DNA from: Amoebophrya sp. A120
Taxonomy: Eukaryota > Protista > Dinoflagellata
Direction: 5' to 3'
DNA: 64,000 bases
Assembly: GCA_905178155.1 (NCBI GenBank)
Contig: CAJINV010000010.1
Location: forward strand, 2,596,466 to 2,660,465
Position numbers and translations under genes: made by a program
Shown here: positions 9,612 to 60,062 of the stretch, in pieces
Layout of the letters: every line of letters starts with the position of its first letter
How positions within the stretch are numbered: the stretch's first letter is position 1
Notes under the pieces: generated by a model
Databases searched by the model: none
What the model was told of the DNA's origin: nothing
Seen by the model: the letters and a program-made list of their open reading frames with translations, nothing else

Positions 9612-12600
9612 ATGTCCCACCTGCTCAGCTACCTGAAAGGCCTGCGACAAGCCCACCCGACGTGGACGGCCGAGAAAATCGTGAAGAAGTGCGAGCGGGA
9701 GCTGAAACTGATGGTGCGGAGTGGTTGTCCTGGTGCTTCGAGGAACCCATCTACATCTTCACGGGCAAGTTCTCTACCTGTGGTCCCTACGTCATCCCCT
9801 ACTCCACGTAGTACCGAGCTATACCACGTAGCAGCGAGGAAAGACGGGAAGAGTTTTATTCCCAGAGATAAAGGAAAAGTAGAATCACTACAGGAAGAGG
9901 AAAGGGAACAAAGTAATAGCATGGCAGATCTTGACGACGACGACATCAGGGCTAGTACCGCTAGGGAAAATAGTACAGCCTGCTCCGCTACACGTTCAGA
10001 GGCGCGACCTGCTGGTGGCACTACTACTAACACTCCGCGGCAGCGGCAGCAGCAGCGGCATGCACATGATTGCCCCACGAAGGAAGGTGGACGAGACGAG
10101 TCGTGCTTTTATCTTTTCAAATACCTGAAACACTGCTCGGACTTCGGCGACCCCCGCGTGCGGGAGGCGCGCGGGATATGGATGTGTCAGGTTTGAAATC
10201 GTCAAAGTTGAAATAGTTTGTCATGCATAAAATGGATGCGAGTCAGAAGCCCACTTATCAAGCGGCGCATGACAAATTTTCATAGAACCGGAGTCCAGTT
10301 TGTCATGCTGTTTGGTCACAGAAGACTGCTTTTGTCATGCTACTTTAGCAGCTCTATTTCAAACCCTGAACAGGCTCACAATCGGCCTCACTTGCCTACT
10401 CTGCAAGACAGGCACTTTGTGGGTTGCATTTTATGCATCACAAACTATTTCAACTTTGACGATTTCAATCCTGACGCTTCCATACGGGATCATTTTGGAT
10501 GACACCCTGGAAAACATCGTCTGCTACCTATCAAGATGACAAGTCTGCACAGCGCCACCCTTTACTTTGTTTTAGTATGCATGGCTTCAAGCGGATGAAC
10601 AAGCGAATACAACAATAAAGAAATAGAAAATTTTTTTCGTGCTCGCTACATATTCCCAGTGGAGTTGCTACTCGACACCAGCGTTTTCAGCGTTGAAAGC
10701 TTGAAGGACTCTGGCGCTTATTTTCACTTTGATTCTGCCCGTTTGACTTTTTCCACGTGTACGGCGAGGGGCGCTGCGTTATCACACAGAAAAAAGCTGG
10801 CAGGGCATATTTGTAATGCAAAAATGAATACACAAAAGGATCTGTATTGCATATCCGAAACAGCATGCTATGGGGCCACCCATGACAAATTTTCTTGTGT
10901 ATTTATTTTTGCATTACAAAGAAGTATGCCCTGCCCGCTTTTTTCTGTGTGATATGCGTTGGGCGGGACTTGGAGACAGTCTTCCGGGCGGGTGCAGCAG
11001 GAGCAGCAGCAACTGACATGATTGAGCCAACAAGTACAATAGCGAAGAGTCGTACTCGTTTCCACCGCCCGACCGAGCTACAAGAAGTTGGGACCACCTC
11101 AGCCACAACGAAGGAAAATACTGGTACGTCTGACGATAGTGATTTAAGTGTAATGGTAGAGCACAATGGTGTAGTGCCGCGAGCAGATGATGACCACAAA
11201 CCTGGAGCTGGTTCATCGTGCTCGCAGAAGCCAAAGATGATGACGCCGGACTTGTTGTCCACCTCCACGTGGTGTCGTGCGAGTCCCGGTCGTGCCGGCA
11301 TTACGTTACGAAAAAGTTCTGTCGCGCCGGCAGCTGCTCGTGTTGAGCATCTTGGCAGTTTCGAAAAGAAGTATGACGGGTGCCTGATCAAGGTTGTCAA
11401 CGTATTGCAAGGAAAAACTTCTCCTCCCCACATTGAGAGGAGCTTATGTTTCCGAAAATTTGTGTTGCTGATTTGTGGCCACAAATCGCATTTGTCTGGC
11501 AAGAAGACAAGGGCAGAAGCTGGCGCCGCCTTATGGAAGCGATTTGCCATGCTCTTGGGCCTAGAGGGCAGCCGTTTGCAATGCTGAGCAACTAGACCCA
11601 AACGCCCCGACCTAGGCTGGGGATCTGGCCGCAATGCCTTCCCGCAATACAAAGCGCATTTGTGATGTACACAAATCCCCCCGTATTTCACCCCCAGGGG
11701 GTTGCGGACCTGGCAAAACCGATGAGTTCGGGCTGCTGACTGTTCCACCTCTTCCGAGAGCGATCATGTTACGCCTCACGCCTCACAAATCCAGCGTCAG
11801 AAATCCCGTCTCGATATGGGGAGGGGGGATTTTTCCTTACGATGCAACGTCGGCGGGCGTCGGGGCAATTCCCGGATCGACGGCCACAAGGCCAGTTTAC
11901 TCATATCCACCAACAACACGATTGACGCGGGGCGGGCCGAGGTGTTTCGTTCGGGCGGAGGACGAGGACCCCGGCAACGTTCTTGCGCCGACGAGGTCCG
12001 TCCACGTTCTGCTTCCATGAAAACGGGGCTCTGCAGCTCCGGAGCTGGGGTCGTGGAAGTAGGAACCTATAATCCTGAACGCAGGAGGTCGTGCAAAAAA
12101 GGAGATGCTTATCATACTGGTTCTCCTACTCCTGCTGGAGCAAGAAAACCAGAAGGCGAAGTAGACGCGCTCGAGCCCAAAGTAGAAGAACTACCTGAAG
12201 CGGAATCGAGACGTTGCACGACTTCTTACCTTGACTTGTTCGAAGAGGCGCTCGAGCCTTACCTGATGCGGAAACACACGACCCGCGGAAGAACGTCGAG
12301 TTTCAAAGACGGTTATTTATTCGAGCAGACCTCCCGGCCTGAGGACGAGACCGAGAGGAAGATGATGATCGAGGGGAATAAGAATTACTATTGCAGTCGA
12401 GAACAACCAGAAGCCGCCGCGGACCACGATGATTCGTTGACGACGACCGCGTGCCTGGACGAAATTTTTCCTCCGGGCTGGACCTTTCTTTTCGAGCTCT
12501 ATGCATTGCAAAAGTAACGCACTCGTAGAAATGCATTACAAATTTCCTCAGCATGAGGAAGAAATTTCTAATGCTGATTTACCTATAAGAACAAGATTTG

Positions 12601-15600
12601 TAATGCATGATTGCAATCCGAGTGCGATACTTTTCTTTGCACAGGATAAGCTGCTGCATCCAGCGATGTCCGCCACGGTGATTCCGATAGAAGAGACGCA
12701 GCTGGTTTTTCTCGGGGCGCGCCGGCACGCAGACTTTGAATTGGTCTGCCCCCGGCGGTGGATGCAGCAGGACTGGTTTGGAACATTTGGTGTTATTCCG
12801 GGGAAAATAAATCATGTCGAAAACCACACGACGGGTGGATCTGGAGCTTTCGAGGTCCGCCCGAGCCGCCCGATGTTCTCGTTTCCAACACCGCAGCAAT
12901 TCCCGGAATTTACCAGCCTCCGCCAGGCCTACGAGTTTTGTCACACCCTTTCCTGGCGGGAGGAGGGTCTGGTGTACCGCTTTGGTAACAGGTTCTGGAA
13001 GCTGCGAAACCCAAAATTCGTGTTCTTGCGGGAGGTCAAAAGTGGCGAGGTCCTCGTGTCGTGCGACGAAAGTACAAGAAGTGCGACGTCGGTGGTGCCA
13101 CTTGCGGTAACATGTACTCCTCCTGGAGGTTCTTCTTGTGGGGAGGACGAAAACGTCTACTCTTTTTCTGATATGACGACCAAAGTGGCAACACTAGGAG
13201 CCACAGCACGACCGACAAACTATAATTACGCAAGCAATCCCCTATGAACGAACAAAATACAAAAGTAGAACATTGGAAAATCTACATATCTCGACGAACC
13301 GATCAAAAATTTTCGTTCAACTACTCATCAATTTTGGTTCAGCTACTGATTAATTTTTGCCATATGACCGAAAATTTCTTGCACATGATCAAAAAATAAA
13401 ACGCACATGATCGAAAAATTTTGAGTCATGACCGAAATAGATGATGGTTCTGAGTGCAGATATTTTTGGTTCTAGGTACTTGCTCTTTTGGAAAACCGAC
13501 CTCTTCATCCTGGACACCGCGACCTCGCACCGATGAACCACAACTATTCAGATTTGTGTGTGTGGGTCACAAATCTGAATAGTTGTGGTTTACAGCAAAA
13601 CCACAACTTTTGACGGGAAACCACAACTATTCGAGTACTCCAAGGTGTTTGAGAATTGCGGAAGCGCTTTCCGCAACAAAATCGGAAGTGAAAAGAGATG
13701 AGGAAACGCATCGGACGGCATGCAGTGGCGGGGCGGAAGGTTATGTTTTTTTTCATTTTGTTTGCAAAGAAGACGGCTACTTCTGCTAAGACGGTTCCAT
13801 TGCGATCAGACTCAAGCCTAGGCGAAGGCAATGGCAAACAAAGGTGATCATGCTTTCTGATTCTGCCTTGTTTGTTTCATTATCATTTCAATATCAATGC
13901 AAAAACAATACAGAACGTCGACGTTGGAGGTGGTTGCAGTTCATGGAGATGTACGTTGAGAGGAAGCGATGCGAAAGAAAAGCAGTTCATGGAGGTGGAG
14001 TTGAACTTGGACGCGGTCGAGACTGGAGGCGCTTCGGAGGTGATCCGCCTGTTGATGCTGTAGCACCGCAACTTCGCCATCGCCGCGATGATTCAAGCCC
14101 TGACGTAGCGGGCGGCGTGAAGATGTTGCGTTGTGATACTGAGATGTCAGATGTAGACAGAAATGTGAGAAAGAGAAAAAAGATTAAGATAAACACGAAG
14201 ATAGAGATAATGATAAAGAGTCAGAGTAACTATTTCGGTATTAAGTTTAAGAAGCAGTGTGTGGAGTGAGTGCGAAAGTGCAAGCGATGTCTGAAACACT
14301 TAAAGTCTCGCCGTCCCCTGTGATAGTAGTGTGCTAGTGTCATTCTCATTCCGAGTAAAACTCTGCCTGTGAAGAAGAAGGCGCAGTTGCTGCCGAAAGA
14401 GTAAGAGTCGGTCACAACAAAATCAAAACAACAGTAATGCAAACGCAATGCTCCAAGTGCGTGCAAGTGCGCGACTGTCGTTTGAGTATGGGCATGAAGA
14501 GGACTATGAGTAATGAGTGAGAGCACAAGAAATGCGCCTGAGTCTGAACGTCGCGGATTTGTATTTTGATTTGTTTAGAATTAGAATTAGACAACTGCGC
14601 GCAGTAGTGTTCGAGTCGGAACCTGCTCTGTGCGGTTTTTGCGCTCTCGTGTTTTGGATCGATATCGAAGTCGATTTGTGGCGTTGTGCATTTCGAAATC
14701 GAATTCGAGTTGAGTTTGTGTCTCCATTTGTGAAAGAGAAAGTGACCCTGCGATGCACACGTGCCTCCCATTGCCGGGGTGATTTTGATCCGCTTCTTCA
14801 TCTTCTTTTTCATTTTCATCATCATCTTGTTCTTCTTCCGCTACTACTACAACTACTTCTACATGTGCTTGTGCATCTACTTCTACATCTAATACTATTA
14901 CAAATGGTCAACGACAATGTCAAGGCCAAGGTCATACCCATTCCCATTGCTATCGGTCCGATAGCGTTAGCGTTAGCGATTGCTATCGGTACGAAAACTA
15001 ACGAGAACGTGGACGACCAAAAGTAAATATGATTACGAGTATGACTACCACTATGGGATGATAACTATCACTGTGCTGCGTCTACCTCTGCAGCTGCGCC
15101 TGCAGTTTCAGTTGCGATTGCAACTTCATTGCCTGTTTTCATTTTCAGGAAAACAATAATAGTGAAGAGTCAAGTCGTTGTCGTAGTCGTTGTGGTGCAC
15201 TTTGTGTTATTGGTCCGAGTTTGTGGCTGTGCCCGTGCGATTGCGATTCCGCCAGATTTATTTTTTTGCACAAACGCTTTCGTTGCCACCGATGGCGGCG
15301 CCATCCTCTTCATCTTCCGCAGCTGGTCCTGCAGTTGAGCCCGCAGTAGCAATTGAACCTCCGCCCCCACCTCAGCAAACGTGCCCGATCGCAACTGCCG
15401 TCGCCAACGCGGTGAACATGGACGACGTAGTGTCCCTTTTGGAGGATGCTGAGAGTCGCTTCAGCGACCGCGGAAAGCAGGCGACTTCGCGGGAATTGAA
15501 TGAGCCAGTGCTAATCCACGAGCAGAATAGAGTGCACAACAACAGCGCAGTAGGCCGCAAAGGCTGGTGTCGACTTCCCCCGAAAAAAGCCAACCTGAGC

Positions 15601-18600
15601 AAAATGTACCAAAAGATGCACAATGAACCAGCAGGGCGAAATCCTAACCAGGAGAAGCTGCGGAAGTTTGCAGTTGCGGAATTACGGGCGCGGTTTGACG
15701 TTCCTGTGCATTTTGACCGTCTTCTCGTCGCGGCTTTGAGGAAGAAGAAAGAACTCGAAGAAGATGAGGCGGAGCGACTAGATCCGGAAAACCTTGGCGC
15801 ACCAAAAGCGAAGAGAGTAAAGGTACTGGGTAGTAGCTGTTGATATTCATACTTGCGTGTAGTTGTACTTGTAGATGTAGATGAAGATGCACTCATGATC
15901 TGGATCTCCGATTCTTATGCTCGTCATTGCAACGTCGATGCCCTCCTTACCGGATCCGGTGCTGTATGCTAATATCAGAACTCTTCAACGTCTACATCAG
16001 GTAAATAACTTCGTCGACGAGTGGGGGAACTTTTCTCTCGCGAAGCTTTCTAGCCTGAAAACTAAAGCGGAAAAATACGAGTACATCGGCTACATCTTGG
16101 CGACGTCCAGCGCAACCTCGGCGAAAAAGGTGCGAGTGCGAGATTCGCCTTTCACTACTTCTCCTACACTAGCAGTGGCCGCGGCTCCACTCCGTCGGTC
16201 TCGGTTTGTGCTTCAGCTGTAGCGCCAACATCTTCTACTTCTAGCCGCAGTTGCGTTTTCTTTTTCATTTCCTTTTTTACTATCAGATATGCATGGTCTA
16301 GGTCTTGTGCACGAAGAAGCCCTACACCAGCCTTCAGACTGCTAGGGTTTACCTGGGTGCATTTGAAAAGAGTGGTACTGTTGGCATGTGGGAATTGTCA
16401 TGGTGGTTGTAGCAGAAGTAGTTGTAGATGAAGTTGCAGTTGCAGACGCACAAGAAAATGAAAAAGCACAACGCGCGGTCCTAGGATCGTCGCCGCCTTT
16501 ATCATTATCCGGGAATAGCTTCACAACAAACAACTACGACAGATCCAGTTACTGCAGAACCTTTTCCAAATGGAGCAGCTGTTCAGCAACAAGACGCGGT
16601 ACCTTGGGTTGGATAAAGTAGCACTTTCTGGCGGAGTTGTTAACGTCGCTGACAACGTGATGACCCTGCGATCCGGTCCGGGAAGCGCGCCGGTGATGGG
16701 CCCACTACTGGGCATCAACAAAGACAAAAGAATCCAGTACACGTACGAGAAGTTGCCTTCTCCGCAAAAGCGGCGCGCACTACTGACGCTGAAGGGCAAC
16801 CTGGAGTACGAGGACGCGCGGGAGAACAAGGTGGTAGCAACGAAAAAACAACTGAACTATCAGGACGGGCTCCGGATGTTGGCGCAGCGGTTGGAGGATA
16901 AAATTCTGCGGGTGTTGAATTTACGGGACCGCTCGGACGTGGAAGCAATGGCGGGTATTTTTACATCTCTACTGGACGTTGTTGCACTTGCAGTCGCAGT
17001 TGCGGGTGTGAAAATGAACGTGAAACAAAAATGATTCCGCCACTCGTGTGGCGCTTGCAGCTTTCCATGCGGTTGAGCTAGGGCGTTTGTTGCATGACAG
17101 AAAACTTGCAATACCAATTCCAATGCGTATGCGAATGCCTATGCAAATGCAAATGCAAAACCGAAATAAACACGCAAACTTAAATCTTAATCAGACCTCG
17201 ACATCAAGCGCCAGGAGGTCGTCATGGAGATTGCAAACGACCTGGACGTCGTCCAGTTTTGGAACGCCCAGGTGAATGACAATTTGGTGAACAGGGTCGA
17301 GATGAAGCTTTCGTCGGCCGCGTACAAGCGGGCAATCGACGATGGTGCCGCGGCGGCGTCTTTGAGCTGTGCTGCTAAAACACCCCGACCAATACTGGTG
17401 ATCCGTGTCGCCCCCGACAGCACGCCGTTCAAAAACGGTTCGTCTTTCACGTTGGAGGCGATTATCTACAAGTGCTGCCCGGTCACGAAGCAGATCCATC
17501 TCAAGCACATCGTGCCGTCGGCGAAGTCGCACAGTGGAGGTGCGTACACCACCATCGCCGACATCTATGAACTCCTCGCTACTGTTTGCCCTTTGCCGGG
17601 CTGCACCACGGCGGCGTGGGAATCCGACCCACTGTGCATCATGGTGTGCACGAGTGACGCTGCTGCCGACGTGCTGGCCGGCTTTCGCAGTCTCCGCCGG
17701 ATGAACTACGTGCTCCAGCTGAAACGCCAAGAGCAGATCAAAAATAAAAAGAGGAAAAAATACGTGGAGTTTCATTTTTGTCAACAGGTGTGTCAACTCC
17801 ACCAATATCACATATTGACCGGCGAAATCGTCGAACAGATAAAACACGACTTCCCCTCCTTCCTGGAAGGTATCAACAGCATCCAGAGGTCGATGCACCT
17901 CTGGGGACCAAAAGATAAAAACGCGCACAACTACGTCAACATCCCGAAGGCGGCGACGCACCGGTGGATGACCTTGTACCCGACGCTCGAATGTTTAGCG
18001 GCAAACAGAATCGCGATCACCAGAAACATCGAACAAATCGACGCGATGAAGCGTGAGGAGGGGGAAATGAGGGAGACGTGCAAAAAAGCGAAGCTGCACG
18101 TCGCCGACGAAAGGTTCTGGCGAGTAGTAACGGCTGCGCGCTGTGTGATGCAGGTCGTACACGAGGCCTCCGTTAAAGTACAGAACGACCCGGACGTTGT
18201 CATGAGCGACGCGACTTTGCCGAGCATGTTCCCGCACCGACCGCGCGCGAAGACCGTGGACGAAATCCTGGACTTGATCCGCCAGCGGATGTATCTCGGT
18301 GATGGCGATCCCCTGCAGGCCCGCCTGCTCTTGTACCTCGCAGTGAGACTTCCGTCGCGGGAGATCCAGTTCCACTGCTATCCCTGGATGTTGACGCCCC
18401 TCTTCTCGCCGGACGAAAACCAGCGCAAGGTCCACGCGGAAATGTTGCTCGCAACCGAGCCGGATAACAGAGACTCGTTCATCAACTTGCTCTGCACGGG
18501 AGTGTACCAAGAGTCGCTCCAGAAGATGGTTAACGGTGAGGTGATGCCGCCGGAGTTGTTCGCCGTGCTGGGGCCGGTTTACGTGGCGATGATTCCCCAA

Positions 18601-21600
18601 ACGCAGTTCACCGAAAGTTTACACTCTTCGACGGCGATAGAGAAAAAGGTGGCGCCGAATATCGGCGTTGTGCGTGCTGGACTTCGTGTTGCTCGCAATC
18701 GGGGTGACCACATCCAGTACGAGGAGTTTAAGGAGCTGCAGGAACAGTGGAAGTCGCGGTTCGACATGCGGCGGAAATCTGCGAAGGAGTACGACAAGAC
18801 GGAGCTGGAGGAGCTGGTTAGTTACGACACAGAATTTTTGCATCCGTGGCTCTCAAAGTTGTATGATGTTTTCGACGAGTACTTGTTGAGCAACCCGTTG
18901 TTTCCGGAAAAAGTAGAAACGGCGCAGCTACAGAAGATAATCTCCGGCCCCATACCGCCGAACAACAAGCTCGTCGTCCCGCCGGTGGTGCTGCGACACC
19001 TTGCAGAATACTCCACTCCGCTACCGATTTGGAAGCCGGGGCGGCCGGTCAACCTCTTCAAGGAGAAAGCAGTTTATGTCGGATTCCTCATCTGGCGGGA
19101 ACCGGAAAAGAACCAGTTCATTACGGTGCCGGACGTGTACTACTGCGTTTCGCAAGAAGGAAAGCTGAAAGGGCACGTATTGCGGTGCCGGCAGATTCTC
19201 CAACCGGACTTTGACGAGGGCATGACGTTCAGGAGAAACTTCGAGCAAAAACACCAGCCCGATTATCCGAAAGGAAGAACGCAGTGGTGGTGCTGCAGTC
19301 CGTACGACCGCGTCCGCACGTTGTCGCAGTGGGTACTGGACCCGAAGCCCAGCAGGGAGCGTTACTTGTTTCGCTTCAAGATCGCGTGCGTGACGGGTTG
19401 CAGGTGGTGGGAGGACAAGCACACGGTGCTGAAAAGCGGCATCCTCTTCAGCATTCGGGACGACGAGTGGCTTTCCACGACCCTGTCTTACTCCAAGCTG
19501 TTTGTGCCGGCGGCGGAGAAAGCGCGATCAGAGGAGGTGATCGTGCAGGGACCCAATGCGAAGGTCGCGGTGCGAACCACGCGCGAGGTGTCGTGGTTCG
19601 GGTTTGACCAACGCAAAGCGGTGCCGGAAAAAACGATGTCCGACGCGATCGACCCTGTGTACTTCATCTTCCGACCGGAGAAGTCCAACTGGGTCGCTAC
19701 GATTCCGCTAAAGAGATCTACGGGTGAAGCGTCGGCGGAGCGGAAGTCGTACTCTGCTACCACCGCCGGGCATCTGCAGAGTCAGGACTTAGTGATGGCC
19801 GCGCGGCACGAGTGCGTTAAGCTGGTCTGTGGTCACTTGAAGGAGCCCCAGCCAGTGCCAGACCAGGACCAGGAGGATGAAGCCTACGCGGAGCTGTCGA
19901 AGTACATCGACGCCACCAAAGACGTGGACTTCTATGAGTCGCTGGGCGTTGACAAAGAGCAGTACAGCGACAACTCCGACTCCGAGCCGGAGTAAAACAC
20001 TTCTTCCCGTAGCAGTAACATCTTCGCCGCGTCCGCAGTGTCGTATCTTCCTCATCTTCGCCTCGACGAAGAGCACAGACCAGTAGGCACGTGCCGTCGA
20101 AAACATCAAACAACAACAAGAGTCACGGAGGTGCATGTTTTTATTTGTATACTTTACTTCGGAGCGGGTGCAGGTAAGAATAGTCTCACCGCAGTGGAAG
20201 CTGCGCACTTTTTGATAATTATGTATCACATGCTGCTGTAAGTTAAAACTAATCAGAAAGTTAAAGTTTCGATACACACTACTAAAACACGACGCGAGTG
20301 CGTCCATAGGAATGTAAAAATGCACAGCTTTTTATGGTCTTCGCATACGCGTGCACGTGCGTGCGCGCGCGCAAGACGAATTACTTCGAATGCAATAGGT
20401 CAACACGCATCTTCGTTGTTTTGTTTCAGCCAAAAATTGACATTGAGGGGAAAGACGCAGTCTAGTCTTCGCCGTAGCATAGAACTTTATTTGTATGATA
20501 GCGTGCACAGCAAGAGCAGTACGAGATGAGCACTTTTTTCAGGTTACACCAGGCTGCGAGCGAGGACGCCCGACTCTGGCATCGCTGGTGCCGACAGAAA
20601 AACAAGCGCGATCGCGATAGCAAGTGACTGCGATAATTATGATTCTATTTGAAAGTAGTGTAATTCTTGCATCCCGTACAGATTAGCGCAGCAGTATACG
20701 AGACAGAAAGAGCTGAGACGAGCTTAACAATTTGAGTATCTGTGTAGGCGGTTGGGTGATAGAAGTTACGCACAACGTGCGTGTACGCAAGTAGCTTGTA
20801 AATGCCCCAGCGATAGAGAAATTGAAAGATGTACCCAGTTCCCCCTGCCCTTGTAAATCCCGAAATCACCAAAAAGATCTGGCTATTTTCCCACCCGATA
20901 CAGAATTGACGCGTAGTAGTTTCTAGTGCGACGGCCCGCAGTTTCTTATCACATCGTAGAGGAAAGTTGTACGTAGGCACTACCCCAGAACACACGAAGC
21001 CCACGAATTTTGTACCCGAAGATCATTGTAAAACGTCCGTCAAGACACGAAAATCATGTACCGAAATGCAGAAAATTCAGAGGTCGACTCTCATATTTGA
21101 AATGAAGAAGCAGCCGCGAAGAGCCTTCAGATCCTGAGAATGACGCGAGATTTTGACCGAGCCTTGTGAGGTCTGAGCCGAAAATGCACAAGAAAATGAG
21201 AAGACGACGACCAAAAATTCTTGCTCAATTAGAAGATCATCATCGGTTCGCGGCGCTGTAAATAGCGCTCTCGGTCTTGAAATTTTGTCTCACATGTCGA
21301 CGATTTTCCTTCAAAATACGACGTTCCAAAAGTTGGGATTTCTGGTTCCTAGAGATTCAACTGTGATTTTTCATCAAAAACCCAGAAATGTAGAAAAAGT
21401 CCTAGGACTTTTTCTACATTTCGCACTTTTTCATGATTTTTGCAAGGTCAAAGTCTAGGAACCAGAAATCCCAACTTTTGGAGCGTCCATTTTTACTTCT
21501 GAATTTTGTGATTTCTATCCAATTTGCGTCATCTATCCAACCAAAAAACACAGTTGTACAGGGAGAAAACTTAAGGCTGAGTTGAAAAAAAAACCGCGTT

Positions 21601-24600
21601 TTGAAGATGAGTTCGTCCGAATCTCTGCTGCATTTCCTCGATGAGGAAGAGGCCGTTCTGGCTCTCGAGGCCCTGCCCACCGCGATCGAGAAGGCCAAAA
21701 CCGGTGCCCCGGACGACGTCATCGCGCTGTGCGACGCCATGAAAAAGGTCCTTCCGACGAAGGAAGAGGTCGCCGCGGTGCTCAAGGCGTGGCGCGCCGG
21801 AAAACTGACCAAGGTAATCATATATAGCTTTTACGAAGTGAAAAAATAGGAACGTTTCTACTTTTTTATAAAACATCTTGATCATACGAAGCAACATCAC
21901 GGCTTGTATAATAGGAGTGTTTTTGTTTTTTTATGAAAAGCAGAACATAGAAAGGTCGTATCTCACTAACAAATCAATACTTGAAAACTGTGTCAATCAC
22001 CTCTACAGGCCGACATGATGCAGTTCTGTCAGAGATTCGTCGATAGACGATTTAAACAGGGAGCGACGTTACTCCTCTCGGTGCTCAACCGTTTTGGACA
22101 ATCGAAACTCAACCCCCTCCGCTCCTTGGCGCACATGCACAAGCTGTTGGGGTACATGGAATCCGGTGAATACGTCGTCGTCCGCGGTATATTCCGTAGT
22201 TTAGAACAAGCAAAGATTTTACTATATATCGCAGCTTAGAGCAAGAAAAATTTTTACTTTTTTCCTAGCGCGCTGTGCCGCGGAGCCGTCTTTCGTAGAA
22301 TAAAAGCGGACCACTTCCCCCCCCCCGTTCGTGTACAATGCCCACCCTCCCACTCGAAAATAGGTAGCATCAACGTCATTTGCAGTGCTGCGGCTTACTT
22401 TCTTGCCAAGTGGGAACTGCACGCCTTTCGCTTGCGTGCAAACAGGTCCGACACATGGCCACACTACTACCCAAACGAAAGGAAGAACTACCTCGCGCAA
22501 AAAAAAGCGCTGAAAAAGCGGGTGAGTGAGGCCTTGTGCACTTTGTTGCACCGCTACCCGCCCGGGTATGCAAAGGCAGTAGTGCAAGCAATTAGCAACC
22601 CCGACAACAAGCCCTGGTACGAATGCCCGCACATCCCTGCCTGCCTCGCTGCTACACACCCTAGCGAAGTCGCCCCCGGAGAACGCGCAATGATTTTTCG
22701 CTCCTGGGCCAATGACAAGTTCAAGTTGCGGCGCGCATTTAACGCGCCGATAATCAAGCACAACAGCCGACCCCTGGCTGAGATGAGGGACGAAGATGAG
22801 GATTCAGACTGGGACTCATCACCTCCTATTTGTGTTGTTGAGTGCCGACAACCAGAACATCATCTACGATTCAAAAAAGATATTATCGCCATTGCCGTCG
22901 ATCCCACGGCCCCGGATGGTAAGCTGTCCCTCGCCGCGGAGCAGGAAGTTTTCTACGAAGTGATTTCCGGGTATCACTCCACCCGGGCCGCCCAGGAGCT
23001 CGTGAAGCGCGAGGACGGTTCCAACAAGTTCGAGCGGATGCGCATGCGGTATTTCTTACTACTGGTTTCTGTTTTACATACAAGTACAAATTCACTCGCG
23101 CCACAAGTCGTATCTCGCAGCCGCATCTCCATGTGCACAAGATTGAAGTTTTCAGAAATAGTTTAAGATCGCAGTCGAAGAAGATTTTGTATGTTTTCAC
23201 TCCGTGGAAAGAATGCTCGTGTCTTTTTCTCTTCAGAAATTCCGCTCATGAGGCCGAAACCTGAAGACGAACTGCAGCACACTAAAGCATGACCACGAGT
23301 ACAACCACGACGTATACACAACTATAACGAAATCGAAAGCAAAAGCTTTGGTGAAACGGAGCCACACATTTCATCTCAGGTACACCATCTACAGCTCCGA
23401 GTTCGCCAAGTACGAGGACTTATGCAGAATCTTTATCAGGCTCTGCAACGAGAGTAACTCGACTTTGACAACCACACATGTTGAAAAACTGTTGGTTGTT
23501 TTTCCCCAAGTATTAGACCCGCCCAGTTGGGTATTTTATGTTTTTACTGATGGCTCTGGTGATACAGATACTCATACTGATAGTCGTCGTGATAGAGATG
23601 ATGATGGCGCTTACGGTGGCGATGCGTCTTGCGTCATTTTCTAAATTTAAAAAGAAGAAGATCGTGATCGTGGGTGTCAGTGTCACTACTTCTTGTCACA
23701 GCTTCACCTTCTCCGCAGCCTCGACCTGGTATGCATAGTCTCGCTGGAGATAATGCATCAAGGTGGTCAAGCAAGCATGGCCTGAGAGCTGCATGATTGT
23801 TGTCAAAGCAGTGCCGGACCTATGTAGGTGTCCGATTAGACTCCTTCGCGGAGTATGGCTCGTCACTAGGTGCGGCGGACACGACCTCTTTCCTTCGGGA
23901 GTGAAGGTCATTCGCGCAGTTCGGACCTTCTTTTCGAATGCCTCATACGCAAAGCTGAAAACTCGGTCCTTTGCCGCTTTGCCCTGTGCCCGAAGAGTTT
24001 GAAGTCGCTCGACGATAAAGTCCTTCGTGGCTTTAACGGGCTGGATGGGGACCCACTTCAATGTGCCGCGCCCGCCGCTGTTCTGCGCTAATTTAGTATT
24101 GCCGATGCGGATCTGCGTTGTTTGGATGTCCTCCAGGTTGAGGCACCTCACATCCATTCCACGCCGCCCGGTTAGGCAGGCAAGAATCCACGCGAACCGG
24201 TACTGCTTACCGGCTTCGGTTTTCCTGCCGGTGCTTTTCTCCAAGTGCAGCCCAAATCTGCGGCAGTCCGGCATGGTCATGGACCCACTCCGCTCCTCCG
24301 CGTCGACAATGTTGTTCTTTCTGGTTTTAGGAGCTTTGCTCTTCTGCGCCCCCAATCGCGCCTTGCTTTTTGATGTCACCTTAGGACGCGCCTTCATTGC
24401 TACTTTCTTTGTTCCGCTGCGTGCGGGCTTTGTACGTCGCTTTCCCTTTGGCATGATCGCTTCGTGACAGAGGATGGTGGAGGGGACGTTCTGTGATGTG
24501 TTTTAAATTTATTTCATGACACAGAGACGCCTTTTTTTTTCACATATTGAGCTCGCAGCGACATGAAGATGTTTCTCAAAACAACATGACAGCTGCACCG

Positions 24601-27600
24601 GGAATGGGTCAAACACAACAAGGAAAACGCCGACGCCCGTGTGGACCTGTACGAGTTCTTCAGCGTATAATATCTACCATCATTGTTTATGTTTTTTTTT
24701 TCCTACACCAGATTAGCACTAGTGTGAGCCTGGGTATATTGTTGGAAGTACTCAGATCGTTATCGTAGTCGTTTTTATATTTAAATTTAAATTTAAATTT
24801 ATTACAACTTCATGTTCATGCTCATGCTCATGGTCATGCTCATCTACAATTACTCGCAGGCCAACGTCGACAACATTGCGAACAAAAGCGAAGTGGAAAT
24901 TTACCTGCAGTGCTGGAGAGAGTTCGCCTCCGGTGGCACCCACGAGTGGGCCGAGGTCTGCAGGAACAAAGGTGTCGAGGACGACGAGTCGAAGTACCCC
25001 AACCTCTACCGGTACGACATAACTACTTGATGCGATGAAATGACTACCAAGACAGAGCAATTCTGTGTGGACAAAACTAGAAAGTAAATTCGACGGTAGT
25101 GGAAGTGGAAGTGTTATGTCTAGCGGAAGTGTCATGTCTAGCTTTAACTTTCTGGTCGCTGTCGGATGAGTTGTTCAGTTTTAGTTGCAAGAGAAAAGAC
25201 TTATACTTAATCTCAAACTATTTCTATCAATATTCCAGGACGAAGGTCCTCGATAGTGGTCTGAAGTACCAGCTCCCGGTCATCAAGGACGGCACGTTGT
25301 ACTGCGTCATGAGCTTGGTCTTGGGCGAGAACAAGATCGGGTTGTCGAAGAAGCAGGTCAAGCTGCTGATGCACCTGTGCCAGTTGAACATGTCGCGCCG
25401 CTTGGACTGTGCCGATGAAAGAAACAAGATGGTTTTGCACTTGATCGTTGAGACCGCCCGCAACGCCGCGCGGGACATCGATCACGAAGGGCAAGTGGGT
25501 GCGACCGTGTCGGTATAAGAATACTACTTGCGATTTTGAGTCGATCGCCATGTCTACTTAGCGTCCTCATGCATGGAGCGTTTTTATCTATCACAATTAT
25601 AGACCAGACGATGACCAAGACCACCACCATGATATTACTATTTGAATTGGCATTTGCGTATTTATATTTTTATCTATCACAGACCATCGAGAGCAAGAAC
25701 GACCTCGTGACGGCGATGCGCCCCGTGGATGCCGGATTGTTGTGCGACCAGCCGTGGTTGTTTTTGGCGGAGGACATTCAGTTGGAAAAGCGGCGCAAGA
25801 TCGTGTTGAATGACATTTTGCGGGTCATCAAATTCGACATGAAGATGTTCGGCTGCGACAACTGCGGTGTGTGGACGGTCGTCCAAAAGAGCATCCCCGT
25901 CCGTATTGATTTGTTTTTTGACGTTCATGTTCATGAGTAGCACTTTGTGTTTTTAGATTTAGTTTGCGCAATTCATGAAGTCTGATTTCGCAAGACGACA
26001 TGTGCATGAAACAACGTAAAAAAACAGAGCCGATCGCCAATTTGGCCCCCAAGCACCACGTGATCGTGGACAGCAACCACTTTGATGAGCCCCAGCGTGG
26101 CGTCATCGAGAAGTCCGTGGCCGGCCCGCAGGTCGCCAAGAAGAAGCAGCAGATGCAGTCCGTGACCGAAGAGCAGATCCAGTGGGACAAGGATATTAAG
26201 GAGGAGATGCGGTCCGCAATCAAGGCGTCCATCGCGGCCGAGAAGGCCCGGCACCAGTCGGCCAAGAAGATCGACAAGACGGATCAGCTGCAGCTGGTGG
26301 AAGCTTCCGGTAAGGGAAAGGAAAAGTTTGTCTCCAAGATGGAGCGCCGGCAGAAGTGGTATAGTGATCGCATCGACACGCTGACCTCGGAGTTGAAAAG
26401 CGCGGAGGAAGAGAAGTTTTTCTTGACTACCCTCCTGCAGCGGAAGCTGTCGGTACTGAGTTTCACACTTGATTATGAGATGATGATGATAGGTCGAAAA
26501 TCTGTGTTCTAGATCTAAACCATGAGATATTCATATTGCTTTTTTAAAGAATAAGAAAGATCAGTTGTTCCTGCAGCTTCAACTTCAACTTCGAAACGCA
26601 AACGTATCTTCAGATCCCGGCCGAAATCATCTCGATCGATGTGCCCCACTACGCCTGGGAAGACACGGACATGGACTTTGAGCACGACAACACCATGGTG
26701 GTGTCGGTGGAGGATATCGAGAAGATGGCCGTGGTCCCGGGTCGCTTTCCGGTCGAGATCGAGTGGGGTCCGAACCGCGTGGTGATGGACGACTTGGAGT
26801 ACGACAACGACCCCGGTCAGTACTGCGACTTCATGTCGGACATCGTGTTGGAGTGGAAGCCGGCCAGGTCGATTTCGACCCCGGTCACGTTCAGGGGAAG
26901 GGAGCTCGATGCGGGGGGATATGTCATCAAGTACAAGATGCCCTGCTACACGCCCCCCCCGAAGGACGATGATGAGCCCTCCCAGTCCGCCTCCGACGAC
27001 ACCAAGGGTAAGAAGAAGAAGTCCAAGAAGAAGAAGTTGTCCAAGAAGAACCAGGCTGCGTTCAAGTTGATCGAGAGCGGCAACTTTGGTTTCGGCCAGG
27101 ACAACAAAGCGGCGTCCCAGGACTTCAATGCGGCCTACGAAGAGATGTCGGAGGAGGTGTTCGAGGAGGAGTTGAACAAGGACCGCACGTCGTCCTCCGC
27201 GGCTGCGTCGTCCTCCGCCAACACCAACATGCAGACCGGCGGTTCTAGCTCTTCTTCGTCGAAGCCGAACGTCAACGTGAAGGGCAAGGCGAACCCGAAG
27301 GCCAAGTCGATGAAGAGCATGAAGTCCATGAAGTCCGCCAAGCGCGAGAAGCTGCTGCCGTCCGACGACGAGGGTGAGGACGACAATGCCACCTCGTCGA
27401 AGCACAAGGGAAAGCGATCCCGTGGTGACAGTCTGATCGATGAGGACGACTTGTAATGTTAATGTAACTTTACTAGTACTACTTGATTATGTTGATGAGA
27501 AGGTGATCTTCAACTTTTTCAGAAATTAATGCATGCTGATGAACGCTGCAACTGCAAAAAAATCTACTGCTACTTCTACTTACTCTTACACAAAACTGAT

Positions 27601-30600
27601 GCTACTAAATGGACTAGATGTGCGGTATTTTTCTTGCGTGAAGCATGTGTTTGTCTTCATGCGACACAACGCGAAATTTTGTCTATGTCTTCGCGCGCAC
27701 GATTTTCGAGTCACTGCTTTCGCATTCCGCAAAGTCAGCGACGAGAAGCTACTACGACGGCGAAGTTTGGCAAGATAAATTATGGAATTACTACAACAAC
27801 AACAGGACAGCTCGAAAGCCAGTAGATCTTCGGTCGCTGTCTTAGTCATGTCATATTCAACGACCTATACTAATATCTAAGAAAGAGCCTCTGCTATTTC
27901 TTGCGCCTTCCGGAGCGTTGTTGATTGTGCCTTGACTTAGACCTGTGCCGAGTTCTAAAGCTATCTCCCATGCTTGACTCGAAGCCAGGCGCAACTTCGC
28001 ATTGGCTACATGATACGCTCTCACCGCGGTGCTATGATTTCCTAGTCTTTTTTGTTGTGCAAATAGCTTCGGTCTTGCAACTTTTACTTTCGTACTTGTT
28101 GATGTTGTCTTTCAACATCATCAAGAACAATATAAGTATTATGAATTTCGTATAGAAGTTGAAATCAACAAGTACTGATAGAGCTGGGCACGTAAAATTT
28201 AGATCTTTCTTTTTTTGTTTCGCACTACCTATCGGAATATCAATTTGTTTTCTATCAAGAAATACTTCATCTCTTTGTGCTCAGCTCGACCTTTATCCTG
28301 CTCTATCGTCGACGCCACTCTAGATCATGTCTAGTGATGGTGTTGGCAAAATAACTAGAACTTCACTTTATTGCTGCTTGTCTGTGTCGACGACGTAGAT
28401 GTTTCGCAGCAAAAACGTTTTTACGGAACGGTCACTGTATCATCTGCAAACGATTTCGTAAATCTCTGCAGAGGTGGAGCTGCGCACGCGCAACCACCAC
28501 GGCGGGCAAGAGTTTGAGTCAGCAGAAATTTTTCGTGACTTGTCTATCCGATATATGGGAAAATAAAATGGCACTTTCAATATATCAATATGAATATCTA
28601 TATTCGAAGTTTGTTTTAATTTTATTTTTATTGTTACTTCTACATTATGTTCTTGTTAATGATAATGATATCACATTCACTGTTCTAAACCTCTACGGAG
28701 GCGATTCCACTGTCGATGCATTTTTATGCGGTGCCGAAGTGCGCTGCATAGCCAACCAATCCGAAGCTGTCGGACTAAACGTGTATGTAAAAATCTTTTT
28801 TACTTTCACCTAGGTCTTGGCAGTTTCAAACACTTGTTTTCAGGAGAAGTTGAGGAAGATCGATTGTTGATTTGTGCGTAGAAACGGCGCTGCACCAGAG
28901 GAAACCGCGGACACAGAGAGAGCGCGCTTGCACTTGTTACGACTGAGCTTCCACATCAAAGAAACTTTTGTTGATTCAACTTTCTCGATTCATCGCTGAC
29001 GATGAGAACAACTTCTTTCCCATAGACACTAGCGGATGCGCGTCCGCACCTTCGCGTTGGTCTCGCCCAGTATCGTAGAAGTTGTATCATATAGATATAC
29101 GTGCGTGGCGCACATCCACATGATAAAGCTCTCGGTTGTTGTTTTCCTAATGACATGCAAGTATTGCAATTTCGGTCAATTGTCCTCAAAAAGGTCAAAA
29201 GTTGTGGTTTTGCTGTAAACCACAACTATTCAGATTTGTGACCCACACACACAAATCTGAATAGTTGTGGTTCATCGGTGCGAGGTCGCGGTGTCCAGGA
29301 TGAAGAGGTCGGAACGTCCAGAATGAAGAGGTCGGTTTCCAAAAATATCTGTACTCAGAACCAAAAATATTTGTACCTAGAACCATCATTTTTTTTCGGT
29401 CATGATCAAAATTTTTCGATCATGTGCAAAATATTTTTTGATCATGTGCAAGAAATTTTCGGTCATATGGCAAAAATTGATGAGCAGTTGAACGAAAATT
29501 TTTCATCGGTTCGTCGAGATATGTAGATTTTCCAATGTTCTACTTTTGTATTTTGTTCGTTCATACAATCCCCGTCCCGGCGCACCAACAGGCGAAACAG
29601 CTTTTTCTGCCAATGTTTTATCCACGATGAATCTGCGTGAGCCCCCCGATATCCCAGCAAAGTACATCGAAGCGGTCAACCAGAAAACCAAGACCGCACG
29701 TATGACCCGGTCAGACGTTACAATCTCAAACGTTACAATAGAAGCTGGATTTTGTATTGCATGATGAGAATGACAGATTCGGCCAGCATTCCTCTTTCTG
29801 CAATACAAATTTTGCCAGATTGTAGTGCGGTTTGGGACTCCGGAACTTGTCATGCGCAATCCTATGGGACGCGGACGTGGCTAGATAATGCACTTCTTGC
29901 ATCACAGATTTCCATATTCTATTGTAACGCTTGAGATTGTAAGCCTGAGCAGGTTTTTATAGCACGGCAGCGACAGGTGGCAAGAAGTCTGCTTTCCCTT
30001 ATCCCGATGAAAAAAGCTAGGATGCTTCTACTGTGATACGTGTCTGTGTGTGAAAATACATATATAATGGTGGTCTGAAAGTCTCTAGTAGAAGTGATGT
30101 GGGACGGCAAGACCATTCGCGTGGAAGATTTTTAAGTACAAGCGTCAGCTTGTTTGTTTGTTATGTGCGCCCTCACACGACACATTTTTATTTGAATGTG
30201 ACGTGGTAGTTTTTTCCATTGTGATAGTCTTCGCGCTCGACGAAGACTGGCGGGGCGTTGCCGCCTATCAAGCGGAAAGAAAACATGGTCCCTGTTATTT
30301 CCCCAGCCGACCTGTCATGCAAGTTTGCAGGCTTAGTACGTAGAAAGTGCGGCATGGGCTGGCACATCGACGGCATTCTTGTCTAGGCTTGGCTGTGAAG
30401 AATTCGTCTTCAGCCACCTTGCACAACATAATATTTTCTGGCATGTTGGCGAAGCGACTTTGATTTGTTCTGCATCATGTAAACCAGGTTGCTTTTCTTG
30501 CTACCCACAAGAAAACTCTGTTGCGGCATATAATTGCACAGATTTCATTTTCTCCTTTTGTCTAGTACTTTGGGGCGAGGACCACGTTTTTGCAGAGGAT

Positions 30601-48108: not shown

Positions 48109-49911
48109 AAAAGTTGTAGCCGCAGTAGACAGATTCAGAATTGCAGTTTAGTACTGGTGCTCCGGCTGCAGTGCTCTACCCTCAATTCTAATTTTGCGAT
48201 TTTGCGTTGCAATTATATCGTTTGAAAATAACCCCCTACCAAGCTATAGCCAGAACTAAATTAAGTATGTTCTCGTCTGCTATTAACTCTCGTTTTTTGA
48301 GTGAATTCCCCCCAACCATTCCCCTTTGTAAATCCCTCTTCATTTGTAGTTGACCGTAATTGTGCGCTCGTACTTTCACAACAGTAGGTACGCTACGCCC
48401 TGCACCGACCTGCTGCTCCGCTGTGTGAGAAGTACAACTACCGGGGCTAAGGGGGCCGAACAAAAATTGGGGACGAGGGCCTGCATGTTGAAACACCCCG
48501 TCCTTGCTGTTCTCTTTGACACCAATAAAGGTCGGGGCGTGAAGATGTTTCTCGATTTTTCCTTCCAGCCTGCTTGTAAGTACGTGAACCTACGACTGAG
48601 TTTTTTTCCTCCTCGTCTAACAACCATATACCATACGTGATGTGCCGATTATGATTATCGAATAATGATACGTGAGAGCTACTACTGCGCTTTCTCGGTT
48701 GCTGTTTTCGTTGCGTCCTCGTTGAAAAAAAGAAAACGTACAACAAAATAGTGAACCAAGCTGTTGTACTTACCTACGATACATCGTCGTCGCTGTCTGT
48801 TGTACTGCTTGACCGCCCTCGGTCTTCGTACTGGTTTCTTTCGACAGACCTAATTTTTATTTCGCCTGCTTTTATTCGTTTTCCGTTTCGTCCACCTCAA
48901 GCACTTCTCGGTGTTGTACCCAGGTAAAAGTAACCCTTTTATCATCTCGACGGAGCAACAAGGAGCGGGCCCGTGCTGTCAACTCTTTCGGTGGTGAGGA
49001 CTGGTCTTCGTGTGATGAAAGCGGATCGTTGCGTATTCGTTATCGTGCGTACTCTTCTTCGTACAGGATGATTTTAGCAGGCTGCGGCCGCAGCCTGCTA
49101 AAGCCGTGAGGTCGTCGTGCAGTGCCGTGAGGCACATCTGTCTTGCGTGCGCAAACGTTCACCGGAAATTCCTCTATATAGAATGACTATAATATACCCA
49201 TGCAACTATGTTGACAATTCTAACAGAGACATGTACATGCTGAGTAGAAAAAACCCGTCCCATACTAAACAGATGTATCATTTTCGCTTTGTGCTTCCCC
49301 CTTTTGCCCCTTCATGAAACAAGTAAGAGAGAGGACGCAGTAAGCTACTTATTTTATTTCTTATGCGGAACAACGTCGACAATTTTGCGCTTGCCCCTAA
49401 TATGTAAGCTTAATTGACTTTGACGCTCCTTCATTCGGGGTTTCGAACGCCATGTACTGGGTTCCTCTAGGCAGCACCTAACCCCACCTCTGTCGCAGCT
49501 TTTCCGAAATAATGTTTGACGAAAGAAAGCAGCGTCATGACCAAGACAGATTCTGACTCGGGCTAGCGCTACTGAAGAACCGTTCTCACGAGCAGACGTC
49601 CGCACATTGTTAAGACCACCACCTGACGATGAACATGAGAATTTATTGTTCATTCTCGTCAGCAGGACAACCGAGACTCGGAGAAGCATGGGGAAGCCTT
49701 GCGTGATTTTCTTGTTCTCGGCCATCGTCGGCAACTACAGGATGAAGCAGGACGAGCAGATGAATAAAAAAAGGACGACCACTCTTTCTCTAGCGTGACC
49801 CGTGGTCAGCCAGACCGAAGAATCTTCGCCGGAACTTCCACAGCGGAGGGAGTCCTCAGTAAAAACTGCGGTGGAAAAATTCTAGGTTGAGGTGCGCTTT
49901 TACTCAGGATA

Positions 49912-59685: not shown

Positions 59686-59783
59686 GGTTCCTCTCCTGCC
59701 CCGGCAGATCAAATACAATCTGAGGACCAGTTTTTGCTGGGTCCCGAGGGCCAGGCGAGCCCCCCAGCGGGTCCGACGATACT

Positions 59784-60062
59784 TATCCTGAGTAAAAACG
59801 TACCCACACCAGAGTCAAGATGGGGATTTTGCAACACAAACCTAGGAGTTTTGGGACTCACGCATGACAAGTTTCTGTTTGTAAGGTAGTGCAAGTTAGT
59901 AAGGGAAGCCGCATCACAAATCGACCTGCTGATCCTGTTCACAGCATCACAAATTCCAAAACACGATTGGAAATGGGTCTCATCGGGATGCGCATTACAA
60001 ATGTCTTTGTCATTGCAAATCTGCATTACAACTCTGGGGTGGGTACGTTTTTACTCAGGATA
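59784..60062. mobile_element. Introner, family B (copy duplicated with its flanks from 57561)
   Basis: Same sequence and ATACT direct repeat as 57561-57839. Confidence 0.9.

What the first reader, a model, noticed from the sequence alone, without database searches (positions are those of the whole stretch)
21320..21487. A 168-bp palindrome sits at the exact geometric midpoint of a 16.3-kb transposon
Seen: the element spans 13243-29565 and the palindrome axis lies between 21403 and 21404, giving arms of 8161 and 8162 bp. The two halves are otherwise unrelated (transposase on the left, ParB-like and recombinase genes on the right), so the symmetry is not a fold-back duplication. The palindrome has a perfect 38-bp core plus 34-bp outer arms on the same axis. 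Known precedents for position-critical sites: the central strong gyrase site of phage Mu aids end synapsis, bacterial dif lies opposite oriC, and protelomerases of the tyrosine recombinase fold cut palindromes to make hairpin ends. Inference: this is a functional site whose central position is under selection. It could load a protein that tracks both ways to pair the TIRs, or be a resolution or telomere site antipodal to the TIR-TIR junction of an excised circle.
Basis: partly seen in the sequence, partly recalled or inferred. Interest (0 to 1): 0.95.

Follow-up and report, generated by a model that had tools for sequence, protein, structure and literature searches.

The report
Transposon with an exactly centred palindrome
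A 16,323-base jumping element, in what is likely a parasitic marine protist (Amoebophrya), carries a long DNA palindrome within one base of its exact middle, likely a protein-binding hub that folds the element in half so that its two distant ends can meet for excision, as the central gyrase site does in phage Mu.

Summary
The element spans 13243-29565 with an 8-bp target duplication and 372-bp TIRs, the palindrome axis gives arms of 8161 and 8162 bp, and two sequencing runs of one sample each assemble the arms as single-copy 7830/7831-bp contigs. Random placement would hit the middle with p≈1e-4 (≈1e-3 within its intergenic gap). The element is a hAT-like cut-and-paste transposon of a family with at least 15 diverged gene models in Amoebophrya AT5.2. 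Three of these run from the transposase into the same weakly ParB-like gene, and one lies two gene numbers from a homologue of the Xer/Int-type recombinase. No DNA of a relative was obtainable, so selection on the central position is untested. Best reading (0.4): a two-fold symmetric hub that aligns the arms and pairs the TIRs, like Mu's central gyrase site. Rivals: promoter/operator centred by luck (0.2), hairpin-telomere site (0.17), dimer-resolution site (0.15). The recombinase is not a protelomerase by profile, and hairpins inside the TIRs are a competing target for it. New variant of a known kind.

The parts
13235..13242 (+). Left copy of the 8-bp target-site duplication
   Evidence: identical to 29566-29573
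13243..13614 (+). Left TIR, 372 bp, built on a ~22-bp period; outer 93 bp 98% and inner 119 bp 100% identical to the right TIR
13536..13590 (.). Hairpin inside the left TIR: 23-bp arms around an asymmetric 9-bp spacer; candidate recombinase or transposase site
   Evidence: read from sequence; self-match; a partial match to this region occurs on another contig of X1/X2
13669..14026 (+). Probable first exons of the transposase transcript (173-nt skip 13740-13912)
   Evidence: one 188-nt contig at depth 2.9 in run X7, whose RNA status is a guess
15190..17034 (+). Probable upstream exons of the transposase gene (ORFs 15190-15843, 15917-16222, 16570-17034)
   Evidence: weak tblastn matches to N-terminal parts of family proteins, E 8e-4 to 0.05
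17194..19995 (+). Main exon of the hAT-like transposase (933 codons; D75, D155, C200xxH203, R257-W258, E474) with a long C-terminal extension
   Evidence: atlas leads to hAT families at 0.85; no Pfam hit
21320..21487 (.). Central palindrome, 168 bp: 38-bp perfect core (21385-21422), 31-bp half-matched segments, 34-bp outer arms; CTAG at -53, 0 and +53 from the axis
21607..23644 (+). Multi-exon gene with a ParB/Srx-like segment (S-G-x-H motif near 22960); starts 120 bp from the palindrome; exon structure inferred
   Evidence: homologous segments follow the transposase in three AT5.2 gene models; hhalign to ParB E 0.0045
23696..24454 (-). Tyrosine recombinase, 252 aa: basic N-terminal tail plus catalytic domain (R98, K121, H200, R203, H226, Y235 by motif); too short for a core-binding domain
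   Evidence: PF00589 above cut-off; 56% and 52% to P0001 and P0002
24590..27456 (+). Accessory coding exons of unknown function, conserved in order in a relative
   Evidence: codon-bias segments; P0005 matches 25683-25892 and 26620-26973
29194..29565 (-). Right TIR, 372 bp, with the same internal hairpin at 29218-29272
29566..29573 (+). Right copy of the 8-bp target-site duplication

Best explanation
The palindrome sits at the exact middle of a hAT-like cut-and-paste transposon and is likely a two-fold symmetric protein-binding hub that would pin the tip of a DNA loop or supercoil, so that the two equal arms would lie side by side and the TIRs, 16 kb apart, would meet for the transposase to excise the element. 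Shown: the geometry, the element's class by motif, and the family's gene order. Inferred: that position is selected; that the partner is the neighbouring ParB-like protein or a host topoisomerase/SMC; that selection holds the site near the centre and the last tens of bases are partly luck. On this reading the recombinase more likely acts at the hairpins inside the TIRs.
For: Equal distance to the two ends is the quantity this mechanism would select; p≈1e-4 to 1e-3 for chance placement. The register extends into the ends: both TIRs are 372 bp and their 22-bp indels cancel, leaving outer and inner parts on one axis. The site is symmetric throughout, core and outer arms, as fits a non-directional hub; its sub-sites lie five helical turns apart (CTAG at -53, 0, +53). 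The transposase keeps CxxH and RW in 11 of 11 aligned rows, the motifs of the flanking-hairpin cut-and-paste pathway (PMC5499845, passages), which needs both ends paired (established knowledge). A ParB/Srx-like gene starts 120 bp away and follows the transposase in three AT5.2 models. Precedent: the centre was shown to be the best position for Mu's strong gyrase site, and offsetting it delayed replication (PMC10052514, passages). Core dinoflagellate DNA is proposed to be folded by transcription-induced supercoils (PMC8110477, passages; not shown for Amoebophrya). In Paramecium, elements with a recombinase have palindromic TIRs and Anchois lacks both (PMC3464196, passages), which points the recombinase at TIR hairpins.
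Against: One copy only; no relative's DNA was found, so centrality across the family is untested. No known loop or supercoil mechanism needs single-base precision, so the exactness is only partly explained. The family's gene order (one long transposase gene, then an accessory block) would put this intergenic gap near the middle anyway. ParB support is weak (hhalign probability 7.7%; no Pfam, PDB or atlas hit) and the CTP-binding arginine is absent in 3 of 4 members. The model leaves the recombinase, 2.2 kb away and catalytically intact, without a shown role. The palindrome shares no excess of short words with the TIRs, so transposase binding there is not indicated.
Confidence: 0.4

Rival explanations
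1. The palindrome is an operator or promoter element for the adjacent gene (or a relic hairpin kept perfect by template switching), and its central position is a coincidence helped by the family's gene layout.
For: It lies 120 bp upstream of the ParB-like start codon. The transposase gene and the accessory block are of similar size and keep their order in relatives, so the gap between them is near the middle. The finding was selected for exactness from a very large scan. n = 1.
Against: Even inside the 1.6-kb gap only 2 of about 1,440 placements are this central. The TIR indels also cancel. A 168-bp three-part palindrome is large for an operator. It has no target duplication and no second copy in the window or among the contigs listed, unlike the host's short TIR elements.
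Confidence: 0.2
2. The palindrome is a telRL-like site: the excised element closes into a circle at its TIRs and the recombinase cuts the antipodal palindrome to give a linear episome with hairpin ends and the TIR junction in the middle.
For: A 6-bp palindromic centre inside a larger imperfect inverted repeat is the layout described for N15 telRL and for the internal site of an integrated brown-algal virus, where reads fold back exactly at the axis (PMC13236599, passages and Discussion). hAT circles with two intact TIRs are common and can re-integrate (PMC2803484, abstract). ParB-like and recombinase genes sit beside the site.
Against: All 3 recombinase homologues hit PF00589 and Xer/integrase profiles, none a telomere-resolvase profile; the algal virus has a dedicated resolvase. 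No replication gene was recognised in the element. Element depth does not exceed flank depth. Equal arms would need an origin at the TIR junction, which is unsupported, and equal TIR lengths stay unexplained.
Confidence: 0.17
3. The palindrome is a dif/res-like crossover site where the recombinase separates joined copies, placed where two inward-moving replication forks (or the forks of a circular episome) meet.
For: The recombinase is Xer/Int-like with a full catalytic set and its link to the transposase recurs in AT5.2 (g2071 and g2073). Ciliate Tec elements pair a DDE transposase with a tyrosine recombinase thought to resolve transposition intermediates (PMC3212892, passages). The core can be read as two arms around a 6-8-bp spacer.
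Against: The spacer and both flanks are symmetric, so crossovers would join left to left as readily as left to right; known crossover sites are directional (established knowledge). CxxH/RW chemistry breaks both strands and gives no cointegrate. The TIR hairpins, with an asymmetric spacer and 100% identity over 119 bp, look more like recombinase sites. Fork meeting would not need this precision.
Confidence: 0.15

Closest known systems
hAT superfamily (Hermes, hobo, Ac)
   Same: TIRs, 8-bp target duplication, D-D-CxxH-RW-E order and spacing in the transposase (reference spacing recalled); nearest atlas clusters are DUF659/hAT families
   Different: 16 kb, 372-bp TIRs, transposase models of about 1,200-1,550 aa with no Pfam hAT hit, several accessory genes, a tyrosine recombinase and a central palindrome
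Ciliate Tec1/Tec2, Sardine and Thon (IS630-Tc1-mariner transposase plus tyrosine recombinase)
   Same: DDE transposase and tyrosine recombinase in one TIR element; long TIRs with internal hairpins (PMC3464196, PMC5405496, PMC3212892; passages)
   Different: Other transposase superfamily and TA target; by eye the Sardine consensus has only a short inverted repeat about 55 bp from its midpoint, no long central palindrome
Strong gyrase site of phage Mu
   Same: A cis site at the centre of a long transposon; proposed role in bringing the ends together (PMC10052514, passages)
   Different: Mu is bacterial and replicative and uses host gyrase; here the host is a eukaryote, the site is a long palindrome, and no partner is shown
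N15 telRL and the telRL-like site of Ectocarpus endogenous phaeoviruses
   Same: Internal palindrome with a 6-bp symmetric centre inside a larger inverted repeat, in an element that can be integrated (PMC13236599)
   Different: They encode a telomere resolvase and replication genes; this recombinase is Xer/Int-type and no fold-back reads were seen or testable
Giant algal DNA transposons with ParB-like accessory genes (Sola1-1_Ec32)
   Same: Large DNA transposon carrying a ParB-like gene (PMC12477816, passages)
   Different: There ParB is fused to a DNA methyltransferase; no recombinase or central palindrome is mentioned in the passages seen

Membership tests
hAT transposons | TIRs and 8-bp target-site duplication | tested here: met
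hAT transposons | D, D, CxxH, RW, E signature in order | tested here: met
   7, 8, 11, 11 and 9 of 11 aligned rows; the consensus signature is recalled, with (C/D)xxH and W confirmed in PMC5499845 passages
hAT transposons | Profile or fold match to hAT transposase | tested here: inconclusive
   no Pfam or PDB sequence hit; atlas leads at 0.85 only; model pLDDT 35.6, Foldseek blank
hAT transposons | Excision through hairpins on flanking DNA | not testable with these tools
   needs biochemistry
Xer/Int tyrosine recombinases | Catalytic domain with R-K-H-R-H-Y | tested here: met
   PF00589 above cut-off; residues kept in 3 of 3 homologues
Xer/Int tyrosine recombinases | N-terminal core-binding domain | tested here: not met
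   catalytic match starts at residue 78-84 after a 36% Lys/Arg tail
Protelomerase / telRL systems | Telomere-resolvase protein | tested here: not met
   0 of 3 homologues hit such a profile in Pfam, NCBIfam or PHROGs; other element ORFs scanned gave no hit either
Protelomerase / telRL systems | Palindromic site with symmetric 6-bp centre | tested here: met
Protelomerase / telRL systems | Hairpin-ended molecules (fold-back reads at the axis) | tested here: inconclusive
   only contigs were available for the runs holding the element; they drop rare forms
dif/res-type resolution sites | Directional site (asymmetric spacer or one-sided accessory sites) | tested here: not met
   core and outer arms are symmetric; only the two 31-bp segments differ
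ParB/parS CTPase clamps | ParB/Srx N-terminal fold | tested here: inconclusive
   hhalign of 4 family stretches against 18 ParB domains: E 0.0045, score 22.1, shuffles max 18.3 (0 of 100), probability 7.7%; direct library hits absent
ParB/parS CTPase clamps | GxxRxxA arginine motif for CTP | tested here: not met
   S-G-x-H-S in 3 of 4 rows including the window's, H-R in 1
Mu SGS-type central synapsis site | Central position | tested here: met
   arms 8161/8162
Mu SGS-type central synapsis site | Loss of activity when deleted or moved off centre | not testable with these tools
   needs a transposition assay or arm lengths of relatives
Rfam RNA families | Match above the gathering score | tested here: not met
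   0 of 19 matches reach it; all are generic miRNA hairpin models

The most novel reading that the evidence does not exclude
An undescribed family of giant hAT-like transposons in Amoebophrya keeps its two arms matched in length almost to the base, because an element-encoded machine loaded at a central palindrome zips the arms together in register until the TIRs pair: the first eukaryotic counterpart of Mu's central site, possibly doubling as the hairpin-telomere site of a linear episomal phase.
Probability: 0.25. Interest if true: 0.9.

Novelty: new variant of a known kind. Interest (0 to 1): 0.7.

Why it matters
How a transposase finds two ends many kilobases apart is an open problem for large eukaryotic DNA transposons, whose activity normally falls with length (established knowledge). 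A position-critical central site is proven only for phage Mu. If relatives keep their arms equal, this would be a eukaryotic case with a simple test (shift the centre, measure excision) and a possible design rule for large-cargo transposon vectors. Independently of the palindrome, a hAT-like transposase linked to a tyrosine recombinase and a ParB-like gene, in a family of at least 15 diverged gene models in one Amoebophrya proteome, was not found in my literature searches. Amoebophrya was reported to have almost no DNA transposases (PMC7789003, passages).

Tried and rejected
No whole genome is held for the window. DNA of relatives was not found: recombinase profile in metagenome contigs (0 of 594 candidate stretches), viral contigs (0 of 154) and prokaryote genomes (1 of 44, a low-complexity match to the basic tail, rejected); palindrome-core and TIR patterns in viral contigs (0); recombinase motif pattern in viral contigs (0); TIR motif pair in metagenomes (18 matches, 0 of 18 similar to the element by blastn or tblastn); recombinase against phages (none). 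Word-based homologue searches for the transposase and the ParB-like exon were blank; the full HMMER search then found the transposase family. Both structure models were too poor to use (pLDDT 35.6 and 42.2; Foldseek blank); the wider structural search never ran. No RNA holder was listed; raw RNA runs X4-X6 laid 0, 1 and 40 reads, all on a host repeat outside the element, so they are no test. No TIR-to-TIR end junction, empty site or strand-changing joint at the axis is listed, but contigs cannot show rare forms. The joint 13611-29201 lies in the identical 119 bp and the single X3 contig at the right end carries homopolymer gaps; neither is used. Rejected: decayed fold-back duplication; collapsed L-L or R-R assembly (arm depth is single-copy); a host MITE (no duplication, no second copy); known RNA gene; shared binding words between palindrome and TIR (60-129 of 300 shuffles as high); mirrored GC profile (r = 0.09 at lag 0). 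The original Tec recombinase paper was not held. Complex prediction was not used.

Full report
Observation. The element is bounded by an 8-bp target duplication (13235-13242, 29566-29573), which fixes its length at 16,323 bp. Each TIR is 372 bp; they are 83% identical, with a 22-bp insertion on the left offset by a net 22-bp insertion further in on the right, so that the outer 93 bp and the perfectly identical inner 119 bp lie on the same axis, base 21404. The palindrome axis is 21403/21404: 19 perfect pairs, 31 positions with 15 matches, then 34 with 33 matches. Arms are 8161 and 8162 bp. None of 200 shuffles of the element gave a perfect palindrome above 20 bp against 38 observed, the fold z-score is -12.9, and nothing else in the window comes close (score 51 against 15). 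The unique arms have no residual complementarity (z -0.3/+0.4 over 3,001 axes). Two runs of one sample each assemble the arms as 7830- and 7831-bp contigs at flank-level depth; these runs may be the window's own source, and no contig crosses the palindrome. Chance placement within 0.5 bp of the centre is 2 in 15,412, or about 2 in 1,440 within the intergenic gap; selection of the finding for exactness inflates both.

Host and insertion. The nearest named homologues of the recombinase and of the transposase are Amoebophrya sp. AT5.2 gene models, and the window is full of short TIR elements (21 of 32 pairs found have a 5-bp duplication), like the introner elements described for Amoebophrya (PMC7789003, passages). 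The host is therefore inferred to be Amoebophrya or kin. With the element removed in silico the flanking frame reads open across the site, which suggests a recent insertion into coding sequence. The element is single-copy at 80% identity among the contigs laid (13 in each of X1 and X2, 20 rows of the piece table not shown); one other contig matches 37 bp of the inner TIR.

Genes. The 933-codon exon at 17194-19995 has no Pfam hit but 21 relatives at E ≤ 0.001. I looked up 20 of the 21; 15 of those clusters hold an AT5.2 gene model and 5 are unnamed. In an alignment with 10 of the 21 hits, D75, D155, CxxH, RW and E474 are kept in 7, 8, 11, 11 and 9 of 11 rows, the hAT order and spacing (recalled); atlas leads agree at a sub-threshold 0.85. 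The recombinase (23696-24454, minus) passes the PF00589 cut-off, keeps R-K-H-R-H-Y in 3 of 3 homologues, resembles Xer and integrase profiles and no telomere resolvase, and has a basic tail in place of a core-binding domain. Its AT5.2 homologue is g2071 and one transposase homologue is g2073; gene numbers suggest linkage with one gene between, the order seen here, but I could not see that DNA. Three AT5.2 models (P0005, P0011, P0026) run from transposase sequence into a segment homologous to the gene at 21607-23644; a profile of the three finds three of its exons in the window at E 2e-8, 1.5e-5 and 0.004, and P0005 continues into homologues of the accessory exons at 25.7 and 26.6 kb. That segment aligns to the ParB N-terminal motif of 18 bacterial ParB domains at E 0.0045, above 100 of 100 column shuffles, but with only 7.7% probability, and has H-S in place of the CTP arginine in 3 of 4 rows. 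So the element belongs to a diverse family with a conserved layout: one long transposase gene, then ParB-like, recombinase (seen linked once) and accessory genes.

How it most likely works. Shown are the geometry and gene content; everything below is inference. The transposase keeps the residues of the flanking-hairpin cut-and-paste pathway (PMC5499845, passages), so its two ends, 16 kb apart, must be paired. The central site is symmetric in core and outer arms, with CTAG repeated at -53, 0 and +53, which suits a two-fold symmetric complex that acts alike to left and right. Equal distance to the ends, and equal TIR lengths despite indels, are what a loop or interwound supercoil pinned at its tip would select. 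Phage Mu is the proven precedent: the centre was the best position for its gyrase site and off-centring delayed replication (PMC10052514, passages); core dinoflagellate chromosomes are proposed to be folded by transcription-driven supercoils (PMC8110477, passages). I give this 0.4. It does not need single-base precision, so I take the last tens of bases as partly luck, and the partner protein is not identified.

Rivals. (i) Regulatory site, centred by chance and gene layout, 0.2: it lies 120 bp before the ParB-like start and n = 1. (ii) telRL-like hairpin site of an excised circle, 0.17: the site layout matches N15 and an integrated algal virus (PMC13236599, passages, Discussion and a supplement search; N15 basics in PMC2847241, passages), and hAT circles exist (PMC2803484, abstract), but no resolvase or replication gene is recognised and depth shows no amplified form. 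(iii) dif/res-like crossover site, 0.15: DDE-plus-recombinase elements exist in ciliates (PMC3212892, PMC5405496, PMC3464196, passages), but a symmetric site has no direction and hAT chemistry makes no cointegrate. Both (ii) and (iii) also face a competing target: each TIR holds a 23-bp inverted repeat around an asymmetric 9-bp spacer inside the 100%-identical 119 bp, and in Paramecium palindromic TIRs go with the recombinase while Anchois lacks both. By eye, the Sardine consensus (supplement 13, parts 1-2) has its midpoint in a divergent intergenic gap with a short inverted repeat about 55 bp away; this is a lead only and was not computed.

Known or new. Five full-text searches for this combination returned nothing that describes it (listings seen, and passages of PMC12130899 and PMC12477816); subscription papers and Repbase are not covered, and supplements of PMC7789003, PMC12130899 and PMC5405496 were not read and could list such elements. 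The parts each have precedents, so I file it as a new variant of a known kind: a giant hAT-like family with recombinase, ParB-like gene and a centred palindrome. Interest 0.7: the geometry is real and hard to get by chance, and one public assembly can test it, but it rests on a single copy.

Noticed in passing
window 2157-60974 (for example 55019-55298, 57561-57839, 59784-60062): Short TIR elements beginning TAT(C/G) are dense in the host DNA; 21 of 32 pairs found have a 5-bp duplication. They share the terminal TAT with the large element but not its 8-bp duplication, so it is probably not their mobiliser.
   Followed up: partly
window 12501-13242 and 29574-29700: The element interrupts a host reading frame that is open across the reconstructed empty site; no Pfam, NCBIfam or PHROG family names it.
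   Followed up: partly
window 13536-13590 and 29218-29272: Hairpin with 23-bp arms and an asymmetric 9-bp spacer in each TIR, within a stretch 100% identical between the ends while the rest of the TIR is 83% identical; an ACCACAACT motif array surrounds it.
   Followed up: partly
window 13740-13912: A contig of run X7 (another sample and study) skips these 173 bases; the ends read GT..CA, or TT..AG if shifted by one, a non-canonical intron.
   Followed up: no
window 49073-49102: A second perfect palindrome of 30 bp, with no long TIR pair on its axis.
   Followed up: partly
window 57501-57800 and 59724-60023: Two 300-bp copies, 100% identical including some flank, 2,223 bp apart: a recent local duplication carrying a short TIR element.
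   Followed up: no
window 21320-21487: 168 bp is also the length of DNA protected by a nucleosome plus linker histone (recalled); A/T tracts in the site argue against a positioned nucleosome. Not tested.
   Followed up: no
proteins P0004-P0029: At least 15 AT5.2 gene models of a hAT-like transposase family, about 20-30% identical to the window protein, escape Pfam entirely.
   Followed up: partly
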